This document shows positions 2,563 through 18,298 of a DNA stretch of 64,000 bases, piece after piece. Positions within the stretch are counted from its first letter, which is position 1. Each line of letters opens with the position of its first letter. A program made the translations under genes and the position numbers. This stretch comes from Erysipelotrichaceae bacterium. GTDB taxonomy: Bacteria > Bacillota_I > Bacilli_A > RFN20 > CAG-826. Location of the stretch: assembly GCA_015058945.1 (NCBI GenBank), contig SVBF01000011.1, positions 12,527 through 76,526 on the forward strand. Reading direction: 5' to 3'. The notes under the pieces are model-generated. The model searched no databases and had not been told where the DNA came from. It worked only from the letters and a program-made list of their open reading frames with translations.

Positions 2563-4293
2563 ATGTATCGCAACCACGTTAACGGAACCCTTCGCTTAAG
2601 CGATGTCGGATCCGAAGTCACCCTCGTCGGATGGGTGGCGACCCGCAGGAACCTCGGTTCTTTGCTTTTCATCGATTTAAGGGACACCACCGGCATCGTC
2701 CAGTGCGTCTCCGACCATCCCGACGATTTCCCCGACGTCCGCAACGAATACGTCGTCCAGATCAAGGGCCGCGTCCAAGCCAAGGACGTCCCGAACAAGA
2801 ATCTCCCCACCGGCGAGATCGAAGTCGCCATCGAGGAACTCAACGTGATCAACAAGGCCCAGACGACCCCGTTCATCATCGCCGACAAGACCGACGCCCT
2901 CGAAGACACCCGTCTGCAATACCGTTACCTCGACCTCCGTCGCCCCGTCTTGCAGAACAATTTGCGCATCCGCGCGAAAATCGTCCGCGCCGCCCACGAA
3001 TACTTCGATTCCCATGGCTTCCTCGAGGTCGAGACCCCGATGTTGAACCTCTCTTCCCCCGAAGGCGCGAAGGAATACCTCGTGCCTAGCCGCATCCACC
3101 ATGGCAGCTTCTACGCGCTTCCGCAAAGCCCGCAGCTATGGAAACAGCTTTTGATGATCGGCGGGGTGGAGCGTTATTACCAGATCGCCAAATGCTTCCG
3201 CGACGAAGACCTCCGCGCGGACCGTCAACCCGAATTCACCCAGATCGACTTAGAGACCTCCTTCCTCTCCATGGACGAAGTCCTCGCCCTCAACGAAGGC
3301 TTCCTCCAAAAGGCGTTCAAAGAGGCCGCCGGCATCGACATAGAGTTGCCGCTTCGCCGCATCGCCTATTGGGACGCGATGGACACCTATGGTTCCGATA
3401 AGCCTGATACGCGCTTTGGCTTGCTTTTGCGTGACCTCTCCTTGCTCAAAAAGAGTTCCTTCGAAGGATTCGGCGAAGCCGATTACGTCAAGGGCATCGT
3501 CGTCCCCGGCGTTGCCTCGACCACCAGCCGCAAGAACCTCGACGAATTGAACCTCGAGGCGCGTAAGTTCTCCCTTAAAGGCGTCATCGCGCTCAAGTAC
3601 CTTAACGGCACTCTCGAAGGCTCCTTCGCCAAATTCCTTAGCGAGGAACTTAAGGCCGAGCTCGTCAAATACCTCGACCTCAAGGAAAACGACCTCGTCC
3701 TCTTCGCCTCCAGCGCCTCGCGCCGCCAGATCGATAACGGCCTAGGCGCGTTGCGTCTGCTCTTCGCGAAGAAGCTCGAGCTCATCAAACCCAATACCTA
3801 CGACTTGCTTTGGGTCGTCGACTTCCCGATGTTCACCCCGGTGGAAGGGGAGAACCGCTACGTCGCCGAGCATCATCCCTTCACGCGTCCGCGTGATGAG
3901 GATTTGCCCTTGCTCGACACGCACCCGGAAGAAGTCCTCGCCTATGCCTACGACATCGTCATCAACGGCTACGAGGCCGGCGGTGGCACGTTGCGTATCT
4001 ATGACCACGACACCCAGTGGAAGATCTTCAAGCTCCTCGGTCTAAGCGACGAGGACGTGGCGAAGAAGTTCGGCTGGTTCATCGACGCCTTCAATTACGG
4101 CGCGCCCCCGCATGGCGGACTCGCCTATGGCCTTGACCGTCTCACCATGATCATGGCCGGTACCGAGAACATCCGCGACGTCATCGCCTTCCCGAAGAAT
4201 TTGCAGGCCGTCGACCCGACCTCCAAGGCTCCGCGTGAGGTCACGCCGGACCAACTCGAAATCCTTGGTCTTGAACTCAAAAACGAGAAGTAG
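2563..4293 (+). CDS. aspS: Aspartate--tRNA ligase
   Basis: OB-fold N-terminus (VTLVGWVATRRNLGSLLFIDLRDTTGIVQ) plus class IIb motifs FRDEDLRADRQPEFTQIDLE and GGGTLRI. AGGAG lies upstream. Confidence 0.95.
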   Translation: MYRNHVNGTLRLSDVGSEVTLVGWVATRRNLGSLLFIDLRDTTGIVQCVSDHPDDFPDVRNEYVVQIKGRVQAKDVPNKNLPTGEIEVAIEELNVINKAQTTPFIIADKTDALEDTRLQYRYLDLRRPVLQNNLRIRAKIVRAAHEYFDSHGFLEVETPMLNLSSPEGAKEYLVPSRIHHGSFYALPQSPQLWKQLLMIGGVERYYQIAKCFRDEDLRADRQPEFTQIDLETSFLSMDEVLALNEGFLQKAFKEAAGIDIELPLRRIAYWDAMDTYGSDKPDTRFGLLLRDLSLLKKSSFEGFGEADYVKGIVVPGVASTTSRKNLDELNLEARKFSLKGVIALKYLNGTLEGSFAKFLSEELKAELVKYLDLKENDLVLFASSASRRQIDNGLGALRLLFAKKLELIKPNTYDLLWVVDFPMFTPVEGENRYVAEHHPFTRPRDEDLPLLDTHPEEVLAYAYDIVINGYEAGGGTLRIYDHDTQWKIFKLLGLSDEDVAKKFGWFIDAFNYGAPPHGGLAYGLDRLTMIMAGTENIRDVIAFPKNLQAVDPTSKAPREVTPDQLEILGLELKNEK

Positions 4294-11087: not shown

Positions 11088-12278
11088 ATGTCCAAGGTCA
11101 TCATGCACATCGATCTCAATGCCTTTTTCGTGACCTGCGAGACGATGCGCGACCCTAGCCTCAAAGGAAAACCGGTCATCGTGGGGCATGCGGGGAGGAG
11201 TGGGATCGTGTCGACTTGCTCCTACGAAGCCCGCGCTTTCGGCGTCCATTCCGGCCAACCGACTTTCCAAGCACTGAAGCTTTGTCCCGATGCAATCATC
11301 GTCGAACCTCATTTTCATGACTACGAAGTCTATTCCCGTTCGTTCTTTTCCTATGTGAGGCGATACACCCAAACCATCGAGGTCGCCTCGATCGACGAGT
11401 GCTATGCGGACATGACCAAGGCCCTAAGCGGGGTGAAAGACGTGGTCGCCTATCTAAGGAAAATGCAGTTCGATCTAAAGAATGAGACCGGGTTATCCTG
11501 CAGCATCGGCATCGCGCCGACCAAGTGGCTCGCCAAGATGGCCAGCGACATGAAAAAACCGATGGGACTCGTCTTTTTGCGGCGACGCGACATCCCGAAG
11601 ATCCTCTATCCGATGCCCATCGAATCCTTTTGGGGCATCGGCAAGAAGACCGCCCCGTATCTCCGTTCCGTCGGCATCGACACCATCGGCGATTTGGCCA
11701 AAGCCACCGAGCGTGACGACCCTTTGCTCCAACGGGAACTCGGCAAGTTTTATTCGACCGTCAAAGATTGGGTCGCGGGCAGGGGATCGGACATCGTAAA
11801 CACCGAGGAGTGGGATCCGAAATCCGTCGGCGTCAGCGAGACGTTGATGTACGACTCCAAAGGCTATGCCGAGATCCAAAAGACCTTGCACGACATCTGC
11901 CTCGAAGTCTCACGTCGGGCCAAAAAGGAAGGCAAAGTGGGACGCGGGGTCACCCTTCACGTCAAAGACACCGCCTTCAAACTCCATAGCAAGGCCTCGA
12001 CCTTCGACGCACCGACCGATGACCCAGAGACCCTCTTTTCGCGCGTCAGCGCCCTTTATAAGGCGAACTACGAGGACATGGAGGTCCGCCTCATCGGGGT
12101 CACGCTGGAAAAACTCGGCGTCTTGGCTCATGAGGAAGTCCAGATGAGCCTATGGAACTACGAGCAATACGAAGAGATGGATAAGACCAAACTATTGATC
12201 GCCGAACTTAACCGCAAACTCGATAAGCCGTCCATCATCCGCGGATCCGAGGCGAAGAAAGGGAAAAAAGATGCGTGA
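11088..12278 (+). CDS. dinB: DNA polymerase IV (Y-family)
   Basis: HIDLNAFFVTCE, SYEARAFGVHSG and SIDECYADMT are Y-family catalytic motifs. Confidence 0.9.
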   Translation: MSKVIMHIDLNAFFVTCETMRDPSLKGKPVIVGHAGRSGIVSTCSYEARAFGVHSGQPTFQALKLCPDAIIVEPHFHDYEVYSRSFFSYVRRYTQTIEVASIDECYADMTKALSGVKDVVAYLRKMQFDLKNETGLSCSIGIAPTKWLAKMASDMKKPMGLVFLRRRDIPKILYPMPIESFWGIGKKTAPYLRSVGIDTIGDLAKATERDDPLLQRELGKFYSTVKDWVAGRGSDIVNTEEWDPKSVGVSETLMYDSKGYAEIQKTLHDICLEVSRRAKKEGKVGRGVTLHVKDTAFKLHSKASTFDAPTDDPETLFSRVSALYKANYEDMEVRLIGVTLEKLGVLAHEEVQMSLWNYEQYEEMDKTKLLIAELNRKLDKPSIIRGSEAKKGKKDA

Positions 12279-13170
12279 ACTCACCTTGACCGACGCGATC
12301 GACGATTATCTCCAATACCTGATGGTGGAACGCGGTTTGACCCGGGTCACCATCGAGGATTACCACAGCGACCTGAAGCTCTTCCTTTCCTATTTCCCCC
12401 AAAAGAAGACGACCGCCGATCTCCTCTCGAGCGACATCTATGACTTCACCCTCAAAGAAGGGGAGAACGAACGCGCCCCCGCGACCGTTGCTCGGCGCAT
12501 CAGCACCCTCTATAACTTCTATTACTTCCTCGCCAGGGAAGGCTATATCGCTTCCCCCGGCGACCATGTCGATCGCCCCAAGCAAGCCAAGCATCTCCCG
12601 ACCGTCCTTTCCGTCACCGAGGTCGAGGAGCTCTTGGACCAGCCCGACGTCAAAACCGAGTCGGGGGCCAGGGACAAAGCGATGCTCGAGACGATGTACG
12701 CTTCCGGATTACGCGTCAGCGAACTATGCGCCCTAAAACTCAAGGACGTCCATTTTCCCGCCCGCACCATCATCGTAAGCCGCGGCAAAGGACAGAAGGC
12801 GCGCGTCGTGCCGGTTTCGCCCTTCGCCCTAGAATGGCTCAAGCATTACGTGGAGAAATACCGCAAGGCCAATCCGGGCAGCAAGAGTCAGTATCTCTTC
12901 CTTAACCTCCAAGGCGCCCCGGTGACGCGGCAATACTTCTTCATGGCGGTCAAGCGTTACGCCCTAGAGGCGGGGCTACGCCAGGCGTCCATGATCTCGC
13001 CGCACACCTTGCGCCATTGCTTTGCCACCCATCTTCTCGAAAGCGGGGCGGAGCTAAGGGCGGTGCAGGAAATGCTTGGCCATGCCCACCTTTCGACCAC
13101 CCAGATCTACACCCATGTTTCCTCCCGGCGCATCTATGAGGCATATCAAGCCTACGCGCGGAGGAAATAA
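12271..13170 (+). CDS. xerD: Tyrosine recombinase XerD (chromosome dimer resolution)
   Basis: The C-terminal catalytic box is HTLRHCFATHLLESGAELRAVQEMLGHAHLSTTQIYTHV. The gene is followed by deoB, as for B. subtilis ripX(xerD)-drm. Confidence 0.8.
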   Translation: MRELTLTDAIDDYLQYLMVERGLTRVTIEDYHSDLKLFLSYFPQKKTTADLLSSDIYDFTLKEGENERAPATVARRISTLYNFYYFLAREGYIASPGDHVDRPKQAKHLPTVLSVTEVEELLDQPDVKTESGARDKAMLETMYASGLRVSELCALKLKDVHFPARTIIVSRGKGQKARVVPVSPFALEWLKHYVEKYRKANPGSKSQYLFLNLQGAPVTRQYFFMAVKRYALEAGLRQASMISPHTLRHCFATHLLESGAELRAVQEMLGHAHLSTTQIYTHVSSRRIYEAYQAYARRK

Positions 13171-17013: not shown

Positions 17014-17512
17014 TGCGATGTGGAATCATTAGTTGACGAAATACATAATGATTTGATTTAAGCGAGACAAAAACATAATCACCGTTGATTGTCCAAACAG
17101 TCGGCGGGATTTTAAGAAAAATAAGCAAAAATATGTTTAGTAGATTTTCAGTAGTTCAAATTTGTGAACAGATTTTCCGCATTTTTGGAGCGCAAATTTT
17201 ATAAACAATAAATATTAATTCATAAAAATACGCATTTTATCGGCTTTTTTACATCTTTTACTTAACATAATGGACATTATGCGAAGTTAAGTATTTCGAG
17301 GCAATTCGTTTGAAATTCAAAACTACTAAAATTCACGTCATTAGAATTCCGTGGCTGCTTCCACCGCTATTGAATGTCTTTTTGATACTCGCGATAGGTT
17401 CGGGATCTGAATAGATTTATTATTGACGTTTTTCTACGGACAGTATTTGTTAGTGGATCACGCTACTTCCCCTACTTTTTCTTCTATTCCGAATATGGAT
17501 AAAGAAAGTTTT

Positions 17513-17638
17513 CCTCCTCGGGGACTAAGGTAGAAAAAGGCCTCAAGCCTCTGACGAGCTTGAGGTCCAAACCACTACCATAATTTAGCATTATGGGCTC
17601 GTCCCTCGCAAGCCGGGCAAGCGAGGGGCTTGCTGGGA
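17513..17638. repeat. Copy 1 of a ~126-nt three-hairpin repeat
   Basis: By eye it is about 90% identical to 17827-17954. It contains GGCCTCAAGC..GCTTGAGGTC, CATAAT-N5-ATTATG and TCCCTCGC..GCGAGGGG hairpins. Confidence 0.85.
17532..17567 (-). terminator. Rho-independent terminator inside repeat copy 1 (minus orientation)
   Basis: The minus strand reads GACCTCAAGC-loop-GCTTGAGGCC followed by TTTTT. Confidence 0.6.
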
Positions 17639-17721
17639 CATATTAGCATATCGAGAAAGTTTTTGAGCAAATTCGCGTTTTCGACGGGTATATGTCGGTG
17701 AAGAGACATAGGAGGATTCTT

Positions 17722-17847
17722 ATGCTCTCTATCCCAAATGGTGGTCTACCCGGCCCGGCCACCGAGGAAAGGAAGACTCATGCTCAAGGCCCTAATCGTG
17801 CTGATGATGCTCATGCTGATCTACCTCCTCCTCGGAGACTAAGGTAG
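17722..17847 (+). CDS. Candidate 41-aa small ORF (hydrophilic, Pro/Arg-rich)
   Basis: ATG lies 6 nt after a consensus AGGAGG. The product is MLSIPNGGLPGPATEERKTHAQGPNRADDAHADLPPPRRLR. The 20-codon hydrophobic ORF is nested in another frame. Confidence 0.3.
   Translation: MLSIPNGGLPGPATEERKTHAQGPNRADDAHADLPPPRRLR
17780..17842 (+). CDS. Candidate 20-aa hydrophobic peptide (type I toxin-like)
   Basis: AGGAAAGGAAG lies 4 nt upstream of the ATG. The product is MLKALIVLMMLMLIYLLLGD. The stop codon abuts the T-tract of the convergent minus-strand terminator of repeat copy 2. Confidence 0.35.
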   Translation: MLKALIVLMMLMLIYLLLGD

Positions 17848-17954
17848 AAAAAGGCCTCAAGCCCCTAGTGAGCTTGAGGTCAAACACCTATCCATAATAT
17901 AGCATTATGGGCTCGTCCCTCGCAAGCCGGGCATAGGCGAGGGACTTGTTGGGA
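17827..17954. repeat. Copy 2 of the ~126-nt three-hairpin repeat (immediately 3' of rsfS)
   Basis: It aligns with 17513-17638. Most of the roughly 12-14 differences by eye fall in loops and linkers, while the stems are preserved. Confidence 0.85.
17846..17881 (-). terminator. Rho-independent terminator of the yqeG-rsfS operon (inside repeat copy 2)
   Basis: The minus strand reads GACCTCAAGC-TCACTAGGG-GCTTGAGGCC followed by TTTTT, about 80 nt after the rsfS stop. Confidence 0.7.
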
Positions 17955-17959
17955 AAAGC

Positions 17960-18298
17960 CTAGCTGGCTTTCTTCGCAATCTTTTCCAAGAGGCTTTCTA
18001 GGTCGACCATTCTTCTGTTGCCGGGCAGCATCAAGTGGACGATGACTTCTTCGCCTTGGACGATGACCCAACCGGAATCGGGCTCCCCTTCCTTGACGGT
18101 GACGGGGACGCCGCCTTTCTCTAACGCGTCTTCGAGATGCCCCTGAATCGCCCCGAGCATTCTGGGGTTGCCGCAGGTACCGATGATTACATAACTTGCG
18201 AAGGGCGATGTCTCATGAACATCGATGGAGGTCACGTCCTCCACTTTGTGTTCTCCTAATGCGTCGAGGATGAGCTTGAGTTCGTTCTTGGCGTCCAT
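17960..18298 (-). CDS. rsfS: Ribosome silencing factor RsfS (iojap family)
   Basis: 112 aa. Motifs: KVEDVTSIDVHETSPFASYVIIGTCGNPRMLGAI and the GWVIVQGEEVIVHLM pattern. It is the last gene of the yqe operon, as in Bacillus. Confidence 0.9.
   Translation of the reverse strand: MDAKNELKLILDALGEHKVEDVTSIDVHETSPFASYVIIGTCGNPRMLGAIQGHLEDALEKGGVPVTVKEGEPDSGWVIVQGEEVIVHLMLPGNRRMVDLESLLEKIAKKAS

What the first reader, a model, noticed from the sequence alone, without database searches (positions are those of the whole stretch)
17513..17954. Duplicated ~126-nt three-hairpin element, one copy forming the 3' end of the rsfS operon
Seen in the sequence: 17513-17638 and 17827-17954 align over their whole length, with roughly 12-14 differences by eye. 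Most differences fall in loops and linkers, while three stems are preserved. The stems are GGCCTCAAGC/GCTTGAGGTC, CATAAT/ATTATG and TCCCTCGC/GCGAGGG(A/G). On the minus strand the first stem is followed by TTTTT, so each copy ends in a minus-oriented intrinsic terminator. Copy 2 starts right after the rsfS stop and would be the operon's 3' UTR. Copy 1 is free-standing and is preceded on the minus strand by TGCTAATAT, an extended -10-like box at about 17640-17648. Inference: this is a small structured RNA family present both as a 3'-UTR-derived copy and as an independently transcribed copy of about 105 nt. Conservation of stems over loops argues for an RNA-level function.
Basis: partly seen in the sequence, partly recalled or inferred. 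Interest (0 to 1): 0.7.

Follow-up and report, generated by a model that had tools for sequence, protein, structure and literature searches.

The report
Duplicated rsfS terminator module near dif
The repeat is real, but it is a hairpin-rich transcription-stop region found in a single uncultured gut bacterial species; some strains carry a second copy, and the two copies bracket a tiny conserved membrane-peptide gene next to the chromosome's dif site, so it is not a widespread RNA family.

Summary
The repeat exists: 17513-17640 and 17827-17956 are 88% identical, and each has three hairpins, the last a minus-strand intrinsic terminator. It matches no Rfam family. There is no further copy in the 64-kb window. 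It is absent downstream of rsfS in about 20 related species, which have a plain terminator there. Exact-core scans of the species-representative genomes and of part of the JGI metagenomes gave nothing, and similarity searches of phages and plasmids gave nothing either. Among strains of this species the rsfS-adjacent copy is always present. The distal copy and a 163-nt cassette between the copies are variably present. Stems H1 and H2 are almost invariant (2 of 38 columns vary, against 20 of 43 unpaired columns), while the terminator stem changes with compensation. The distal copy evolves faster, and its "-10 box" is not conserved in a second lineage. New context: the cassette holds a 20-aa hydrophobic ORF on the opposite strand, with 68 of 68 nt identical between lineages whose coding DNA is 92% identical. 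The chromosomal dif site lies about 250 nt away. The likeliest reading is a species-specific 3'-end and terminator module of the rsfS operon that was locally duplicated around a convergent small gene. A trans-acting sRNA or a type I toxin-antitoxin-like role remains possible and untested.

The parts
17848..17956 (-). Element copy 2 (E2), the 3' UTR and terminator of the rsfS operon. H1 is 17915-17945, H2 is 17892-17910, H3 is 17853-17881 and the T-run is 17848-17852.
   Evidence: It is present in every strain contig that reaches this point.
17534..17640 (-). Element copy 1 (E1), the distal copy. H1 is 17601-17629, H2 is 17578-17596, H3 is 17539-17567 and the T-run is 17534-17538.
   Evidence: It is present only in allele C contigs (window, L002, L004, L060/L061, L065, L066) and absent in L001, L007 and L009. 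It carries copy-specific pair-weakening changes.
17827..17847 (.). The 'tail' shared by both window copies (the second instance is at 17513-17533): CCTCCTCGGRGACTAAGGTAG on the + strand. At E2 it comprises the last codons and the stop of the small ORF.
   Evidence: In the second lineage the E1 tail is diverged (8/21) while the E2 tail is invariant. The tail therefore belongs to the ORF cassette and not to the element.
17780..17842 (+). A 20-aa hydrophobic ORF, MLKALIVLMMLMLIYLLLGD, preceded by GGAAAGGAAG. Gene callers extend it to 34 aa from 17738.
   Evidence: ORF plus tail is 68/68 nt identical between lineages whose coding DNA is 91.9% identical. The changes just upstream fall in the spacer between the SD and the ATG. 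No homologue was found.
17664..17826 (.). Unique cassette between the two copies. It is absent in single-copy allele A contigs.
17654..17663 (.). A 10-nt direct repeat, AGAAAGTTTT, with a second instance at 17503-17512. The pair bounds the 151-nt segment that is present in allele C and absent in allele B.
   Evidence: alignment; for the sequence.
17641..17649 (-). TGCTAATAT, an extended -10-like box upstream of E1.
   Evidence: The promoter scan did not call it, because there is no -35. It is identical in L060/L061 but replaced by GTGCGCATATCT or CGTGCATATCT in L065/L066.
17960..18298 (-). rsfS, the last gene of the yqeG-yqeH-yhbY-nadD/yqeK-rsfS operon.
   Evidence: PF02410.
17260..17287 (.). 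Chromosomal dif site. In the rsfS sense it reads ACTTCGCATAA-TGTCCA-TTATGTTAAGT.
   Evidence: It is conserved and single-copy in 13 species-representative genomes and in other related loci, always just 3' of rsfS. It matches E. coli dif at 22/28 positions (E. coli sequence as in PMC3025954). A XerD-like gene lies at 12271-13170, and the GC skew changes sign here.

Best explanation
The unit is the structured 3' end of the rsfS operon in one uncultured gut/rumen Bacilli species. It consists of two sequence-constrained hairpins (H1, H2) followed by a Rho-independent terminator (H3). The terminator stops minus-strand transcription a few hundred bases before the chromosome's dif site. The unit is part of a species-specific insertion of about 460 bp, arranged as E2, then a cassette with a convergent 20-aa hydrophobic ORF, then E1. 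The second copy arose by local duplication. It is less constrained and is lost in many strains, either through deletion between 10-nt repeats or through recombination between the two copies. Proposed mechanism, all inferred: E2 terminates the operon, and H1 and H2 shape or stabilise its 3' end. E1 terminates any minus-strand transcription that crosses the cassette antisense to the small ORF. Because the small ORF converges on E2, the two transcripts would have complementary 3' regions. The unit is not a dispersed or phylogenetically conserved RNA family.
For: The position and the terminator are shown. The terminator stem is maintained through change: 4 pairs carry double changes, and two variants have wholly remodelled stems that keep the U-run. 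H1 and H2 stems are almost invariant while loops and the linker vary. Related species have only a plain terminator after rsfS, and two covariance models find nothing in about 20 related loci. No third copy exists in 64 kb with filters off. Three structural alleles are seen among strains. Copy 1 accumulates pair-weakening changes. The small ORF occurs only at this locus, in 20 contigs, and is extremely conserved.
Against: There are no expression data, so termination, 3'-end stability and the existence of any E-derived RNA are all unshown. A terminator role alone does not explain the strong constraint on H1 and H2. Only about 64 kb of the genome, together with strain copies of parts of that same region, could be searched, so further copies elsewhere in this species are not excluded. 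The single-copy allele A contigs could be assembly paths through the 33-47-nt exact repeat core. No sigma-70-like promoter was found for the small ORF on either strand.
Confidence: 0.45

Rival explanations
1. E is a trans-acting small RNA, released from the rsfS 3' UTR (E2) and also transcribed independently from its own promoter (E1).
For: H1 and H2 stems and the single-stranded CCCAACAAG and ACGAGCCC segments are conserved in both copies. E1 keeps a functional-looking terminator even where its stem has been rewritten. An extended -10-like TGCTAATAT lies upstream of E1 in the window lineage and in L060/L061. G.U pairs in H2 and H3 fit the minus-sense strand.
Against: The -10 box is not conserved in the second lineage, and there is no -35. 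E1 is absent in many strains and is the faster-decaying copy: in L065, H1 has two mismatches. There is no conservation outside the species and no Rfam hit. No target or seed evidence exists. The H1 variants (C.A on the minus sense) would be G.U on the plus strand.
Confidence: 0.2
2. This is a type I toxin-antitoxin-like module. The 20-aa hydrophobic peptide is a membrane toxin. Its mRNA 3' region runs through E2 and pairs with the fully complementary rsfS 3' UTR, and in trans with E1 RNA, which represses or destabilises it.
For: The ORF is tiny, strongly hydrophobic and convergent with the E2 terminator, 5 nt from its T-run. The ORF has nucleotide-level invariance with no synonymous change (68/68). 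The predicted plus-strand fold sequesters its SD and start codon against its own 3' end. All observed alleles keep at least one E whenever the ORF is present. The ORF is similar in size and composition to the Ibs peptides (19 aa; this comparison is from my own knowledge).
Against: There is no homology to any toxin family or to any other protein. No promoter was found for the ORF, and the only plus-strand terminator-like site downstream of it (17948-17964) is weak and its stem is not kept in the second lineage. The rsfS terminator ends just short of the ORF, so overlap depends on an unshown plus-strand 3' UTR. E exists without the ORF in allele A. Toxicity is untested.
Confidence: 0.15
3. E is a member of a dispersed extragenic repeat or miniature mobile element family (REP/BIME-, BOX- or MITE-like), with more copies elsewhere in this genome.
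For: The unit is hairpin-rich and lies at a gene 3' end. In the window lineage the 151-nt segment that carries E1 is bounded by 10-nt direct repeats resembling a target-site duplication.
Against: There are only two copies in 64 kb, both at one locus, even with a covariance model and filters off. There are no terminal inverted repeats (by eye). There are no matches in the species-representative genomes, in part of the JGI metagenomes, or in viral, phage or plasmid collections. The E1 boundaries differ between lineages.
Confidence: 0.1
4. E acts at the DNA level. H2 (CATAA-N7-TTATG) is a dif-like Xer-binding core, and the two E copies are recombination sites that flank an excisable cassette beside dif, in the manner of an IMEX or dif module.
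For: CATAAN{6,7}TTATG occurs only three times in 64 kb, against 0.02 expected. The three are dif itself and the two H2 hairpins, all within 650 nt. The arms are invariant while the centre varies. The cassette is present or absent among strains. Two contigs of another lineage show foreign DNA joined at the dif central region, so Xer-exploiting integration probably happens in this species.
Against: The central region is 7 nt rather than 6, and the outer arms match dif at chance level (13/22 overall; my own count on the sequences). About 230 nt of sequence shared with the nearer related species lies between E1 and dif, so E is not a hybrid att site made at dif. Crossover points in the single-copy alleles differ, which fits homologous recombination. 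L065 E1 has CGTAA.
Confidence: 0.05

Closest known systems
Rho-independent terminators with upstream stabiliser hairpins (3'-end stem-loops, REP-type mRNA stabilisers)
   Same: A GC-rich stem followed by a U-run at the end of an operon. The stem is kept through compensatory change. Extra stable hairpins lie just upstream.
   Different: H1 and H2 are conserved in sequence far more strongly than a generic stabiliser needs. The unit is duplicated locally and is confined to one species.
3'UTR-derived sRNAs, both processed (CpxQ, SroC) and with their own promoter (DapZ, MicL); named from my own knowledge
   Same: E2 shares the terminator of the upstream mRNA. E1 looks like a free-standing version with a -10-like box.
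   Different: No transcript, seed or target is known. The element is not conserved beyond one species. The promoter-like box is lineage-specific, and the free-standing copy is dispensable and decaying.
Type I toxin-antitoxin loci with convergent, 3'-overlapping RNAs (txpA/RatA, bsrG/SR4, fst RNAI/RNAII) and the tiny Ibs/Sib peptides; named from my own knowledge
   Same: A very small hydrophobic ORF faces a structured RNA on the other strand. The DNA around it is repeated, and the ORF shows nucleotide-level constraint.
   Different: There is no sequence relationship to any known toxin. The putative antitoxin would be an operon 3' UTR. No promoters or overlap have been demonstrated.
dif/Xer sites and elements that exploit them (IMEX, pdif modules)
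   Same: The inner palindrome of H2 equals that of the genome's own dif, which lies 300-600 nt away. Direct repeats flank a variable cassette.
   Different: The spacer is 7 nt and the outer arms are unrelated. The element is not positioned as an att hybrid at dif.

Membership tests
Any Rfam 15 family | Score at or above the family's gathering threshold | tested here: not met
   There were no hits in the whole window at gathering thresholds. In 17300-18100 at E<=10 there were only two chance-level hits, ROSE at 16.6 bits against a threshold of 45 and a CRISPR-DR model.
Intrinsic (Rho-independent) terminator | GC-rich hairpin immediately followed by a U-run, on the transcribed strand, at the end of a transcription unit | tested here: met
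   One search gives both copies on the minus strand. rsfS ends at 17960. The hairpin and U-run are retained through 4 covarying pairs and through two rewritten stems.
Intrinsic (Rho-independent) terminator | Transcript 3' ends map to the U-run | not testable with these tools
   No transcript data are available. One lead only: contig L010 ends 8 nt past the U-run, but the nature of that sample is unknown.
3'UTR-derived or stand-alone trans-acting sRNA | A discrete stable RNA species is produced | not testable with these tools
   This needs RNA-seq or a Northern blot.
3'UTR-derived or stand-alone trans-acting sRNA | Own promoter for the free-standing copy | tested here: inconclusive
   TGCTAATAT lies at 17641-17649 without a -35. 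It is kept in L060/L061 but not in L065/L066.
3'UTR-derived or stand-alone trans-acting sRNA | Conservation of structure with covariation across homologues | tested here: not met
   No homologues exist outside the species. Within the species H1 and H2 are invariant, with one double change in one degenerate copy.
Dispersed extragenic repeat / MITE (REP, BOX, RUP-like) | Many copies dispersed over the genome | tested here: not met
   In the 64-kb window, the only stretch of this genome in hand (the strain loci cover parts of the same region), the only copies are the two at this locus. The rest of the genome could not be searched.
Dispersed extragenic repeat / MITE (REP, BOX, RUP-like) | Terminal inverted repeats and a target-site duplication | tested here: inconclusive
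   10-nt direct repeats bound the E1 segment in one lineage. No terminal inverted repeats were seen, and the boundaries differ in the other lineage.
Type I toxin-antitoxin system | Small hydrophobic toxin ORF of fewer than 60 aa | tested here: met
   The 20-aa ORF at 17780-17842 is conserved 68/68 nt.
Type I toxin-antitoxin system | Antisense RNA overlapping or complementary to the toxin mRNA | tested here: inconclusive
   The geometry is convergent and the E2 terminator run ends 5 nt from the stop codon. Overlap requires an unverified plus-strand 3' UTR.
Type I toxin-antitoxin system | Homology to a known toxin family, or demonstrated toxicity | tested here: not met
   There is no Pfam or NCBIfam hit. 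Only a self-hit was found among 1.84 billion representative proteins. Toxicity is not testable here.
dif / Xer recombination site (for hairpin H2) | Two 11-nt Xer-binding arms around a 6-nt central region that match the host dif | tested here: not met
   Only the inner 5+5 nt match, the centre is 7 nt, and 13/22 arm positions match (my own count).

The most novel reading that the evidence does not exclude
The E RNA carried on the 3' UTR of the ribosome-silencing-factor (rsfS) operon, together with its duplicated free-standing copy, is the antisense antitoxin of a previously unknown 20-aa membrane toxin encoded convergently between the two copies. Expression of the translation-shutdown operon would then be coupled to control of a toxin, and the locus would be caught in the act of turning a 3' UTR into an independent sRNA gene.
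Probability: 0.12. Interest if true: 0.6.

Novelty: new member of a known kind. Interest (0 to 1): 0.33.

Why it matters
If the ordinary reading holds, this is a well-documented case of a lineage-specific terminator and 3'-UTR module that duplicates and is lost within a population. That is useful as a caution against calling RNA families from a single two-copy repeat. If the module really pairs a new 20-aa hydrophobic peptide with an antisense RNA borne on the rsfS 3' UTR, it would add a new type I TA-like system in a poorly known, genome-reduced gut lineage. It would also be an example of sRNA birth from a 3' UTR. The by-product, a perfectly conserved dif site just 3' of rsfS across this clade with signs of integration at it, helps to locate the replication terminus in these uncultured genomes.

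Tried and rejected
1. Rfam, at gathering thresholds and at permissive E-values: nothing.
2. tRNA and tmRNA scan: nothing.
3. Exact-core DNA scans. A 20-mer in the 185k species-representative genomes gave 0 hits. A 19-mer in JGI metagenomes gave 2 chance hits. That collection evidently lacks the JGI contigs known to carry the element, so the negative result is weak. A 15-mer in viral contigs gave 21 chance hits, none matching the model.
4. blastn against plasmids and phages: nothing.
5. Covariance models R1 and R2 on the window and on about 35 loci: only the known copies.
7. IMEX att-hybrid idea: rejected, because sequence shared with the nearer related species lies between E1 and dif.
8. MITE idea: rejected for lack of terminal inverted repeats and lineage-dependent boundaries.
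9. Alternative reading frames. The 41-aa plus-strand ORF behind AGGAGG takes only radical nonsynonymous changes. The 21-aa minus-strand ORF is truncated to 12 aa in the other lineage. Both were rejected as coding.
10. A YhbY-based look-up for more strain variants gave nothing new.
11. A taxonomy look-up for 'Candidatus Enteromonas' found no entry.

Full report
**1. Observation**

The repeat is real. Window 17513-17640 (copy 1, E1) and 17827-17956 (copy 2, E2) align at 88% identity, with 18 differing columns out of 129. On the minus strand each copy folds into three hairpins:
- H1: GUCCCUCGC...GCGAGGGAC
- H2: CCAUAAU...AUUAUGG
- H3: a GC-rich stem followed by U5

The consensus scan calls both H3 hairpins as minus-strand intrinsic terminators. 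rsfS is 17960-18298 on the minus strand and is the last gene of a yqeG-yqeH-yhbY-nadD/yqeK-rsfS operon, so E2 begins a few bases after its stop codon. TGCTAATAT lies at 17641-17649 on the minus strand. The window holds no third copy, by repeat finder or by two covariance models, one run with filters off. It has no tRNA or tmRNA gene and no Rfam match.

**2. Distribution**

Contigs that encode the identical RsfS, its two near-identical variants or the small ORF give the same locus from many metagenomes. RsfS homologues at 34-78% identity give about 20 related species. Of these, 10 loci come. Another 13 are species-representative MAGs titled Bacilli bacterium, Candidatus Enteromonas sp., uncultured Mollicutes and similar, found. 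In all of them rsfS is followed by a simple terminator and not by this element, and the covariance models find nothing.

Exact-core scans gave no true hit in the species-representative genomes, the JGI metagenome set or viral contigs. blastn against plasmids and phages also gave none. The species itself is not in the genome collection, and the metagenome set evidently lacks the JGI contigs known to carry it. These negatives therefore speak about other taxa, not about the rest of this genome.

**3. Population structure**

The rsfS-to-crp intergenic region comes in three forms:
- **Allele C:** E2, cassette, E1. Seen in the window, L002, L004, L060/L061, L065 and L066.
- **Allele B:** E2 and cassette only. 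Seen in L001, L007 and L009.
- **Allele A:** one E only. Seen in L003, L008 and L067.

C and B differ by 151 nt bounded by a 10-nt direct repeat (AGAAAGTTTT at 17503-17512 and 17654-17663). The allele A copies are mosaics of E2-like and E1-like segments with different switch points. That fits recombination between the copies. As a caveat, allele A could also be an assembly path through the 33-47-nt exact core. Allele B has no such repeat at its junction. The distal copy is therefore dispensable.

**4. Constraint**

Among eight complete E variants from the window lineage and its close relatives:
- H1 and H2 stem columns vary in 2 of 38 cases, against 20 of 43 unpaired body columns (Fisher P=2e-5). 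The events are not independent. My rough event-based estimate is P of about 0.02.
- H3 varies in 13 of 24 stem columns but always remains a hairpin with a U-run. Four pairs show double changes, and two variants (L060 E1, L065 E2) carry a rewritten stem, GCCCCCUGAGUCC-AAAA-GGACUUGGGGGC.
- H1 and H2 give essentially no covariation. There is one C-G to U-A change, in L065 E1, which also has two broken H1 pairs.
- Pair-weakening changes occur almost only in E1 copies, and the E1 body is 76% identical between lineages against 87% for E2.
- The -10-like box upstream of E1 is replaced by other sequence in the second lineage.

Together this shows a functional terminator in both copies and real constraint on H1 and H2. 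It gives weaker support for E1 as an independent gene.

**5. The cassette**

Between the copies, on the plus strand, lies ATG (17780)...TAA (17842), encoding MLKALIVLMMLMLIYLLLGD and preceded by GGAAAGGAAG. Gene callers annotate a 34-aa version starting at 17738.

Between lineages whose coding DNA is 91.9% identical, the ORF plus the 'tail' is 68/68 identical (67/68 in L066, an I-to-F change). The rest of the cassette is 89% identical. The two substitutions nearest the ORF fall in the spacer between the SD and the ATG.

The other candidate frames do not behave as coding sequence. The 34-aa extension and the 41-aa frame behind AGGAGG take only nonsynonymous, mostly radical changes. The antisense 21-aa frame is truncated in the second lineage.

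The 21-nt 'tail' that the window's two copies share after the U-run is the end of this ORF. In the other lineage the E1 tail has diverged (8/21), so it is not part of the element proper.

The peptide has no Pfam or NCBIfam match and no homologue among 1.84 billion representative proteins. It is found only at this locus. The predicted plus-strand fold pairs its SD and start codon with its own 3' end. No sigma-70-type promoter is evident for it.

**6. Genomic setting**

About 250 nt beyond E1 lies ACTTCGCATAA-TGTCCA-TTATGTTAAGT (17260-17287). It is single-copy and perfectly conserved just 3' of rsfS in all related genomes. It matches E. coli dif, GGTGCGCATAATGTATATTATGTTAAAT (sequence as in PMC3025954), at 22 of 28 positions. 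A XerD-like recombinase gene lies at 12271-13170. Genes converge on this point, and the GC skew changes sign here. This is the chromosomal dif site.

H2 shares the inner palindrome of dif. CATAAN{6,7}TTATG occurs three times in 64 kb against 0.02 expected, and all three lie here. However, the spacer is 7 nt, the outer arms do not match, and sequence shared with the nearer related species separates E1 from dif. I therefore treat a Xer-related role as a long shot.

**7. Interpretation**

The best-supported reading (confidence about 0.45) is a species-specific 3'-end module of the rsfS operon: constrained hairpins plus a terminator. It was duplicated locally around a convergent, conserved small gene, and the distal copy acts at most as a second minus-strand terminator.

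The rivals are:
- a trans-acting sRNA born from the 3' UTR (0.2)
- a type I TA-like pair in which E RNA is antisense to the 3' region of the small-ORF mRNA (0.15)
- a dispersed repeat with unseen copies (0.1)
- a Xer/dif-like DNA site (0.05)

All mechanistic steps beyond the sequence features are inferred, because no transcript data were available.

**8. Verdict**

The element matches no described family and shows no evidence of a family beyond one locus of one species. Interest is modest (0.33). It rests mainly on the conserved 20-aa ORF bracketed by the two copies and on the clear purifying selection acting on H1 and H2.

Noticed in passing
window 17260-17287 (and 12271-13170): A chromosomal dif site (ACTTCGCATAA-TGTCCA-TTATGTTAAGT in the rsfS sense). 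It is perfectly conserved and single-copy just 3' of rsfS in about 20 related uncultured Bacilli genomes. A XerD-like recombinase gene lies 4 kb away. Genes converge on this point and the GC skew changes sign here.
   Followed up: yes
L065 about 3480-3597; L067 about 1440-1542: In two contigs of another lineage of the same species, the dif XerC arm and central region are followed by unrelated sequence (ATGTGAAGAAGCGG...) in place of the XerD arm. This suggests an element integrated at dif (IMEX-like). Both contigs end about 100 nt later.
   Followed up: partly
window 17137-17144 (-) and 17322-17329 (+); related loci L011-L035: WCTACTAA occurs 7 times in the window against 0.73 expected. One copy lies on each side of dif, in inverted orientation. 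The arrangement is conserved across species, with a tandem pair on the crp side. These could be protein-binding sites such as a fork trap or Ter-like sites, or a regulator's operators. A TTATNCACA-like box (window 17163-17171) and a TTGACG box (17423-17428) are also conserved.
   Followed up: partly
window 1-64000: The GC skew runs from negative to positive across the dif region while the genes converge on it. The coding (presumably leading) strand here is therefore C>G and A>T, the opposite of the usual G-rich leading strand.
   Followed up: no
window 17762-17836 (+): The small-ORF region is a long imperfect inverted repeat. CCGAGGAAAGGAAG...(start codon) pairs with ...CUACCUCCUCCUCGG at the ORF's 3' end, which would sequester the ribosome-binding site in the plus-strand RNA.
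   Followed up: partly
L010 2127-2242; L005/L064, L061, L069 contig ends: Several metagenome contigs stop inside or just after the element, and L010 stops 8 nt past the terminator U-run. This may reflect assembly breaks at the repeat. If any of these samples is a metatranscriptome, it may instead reflect real transcript ends. The sample types are unknown.
   Followed up: no
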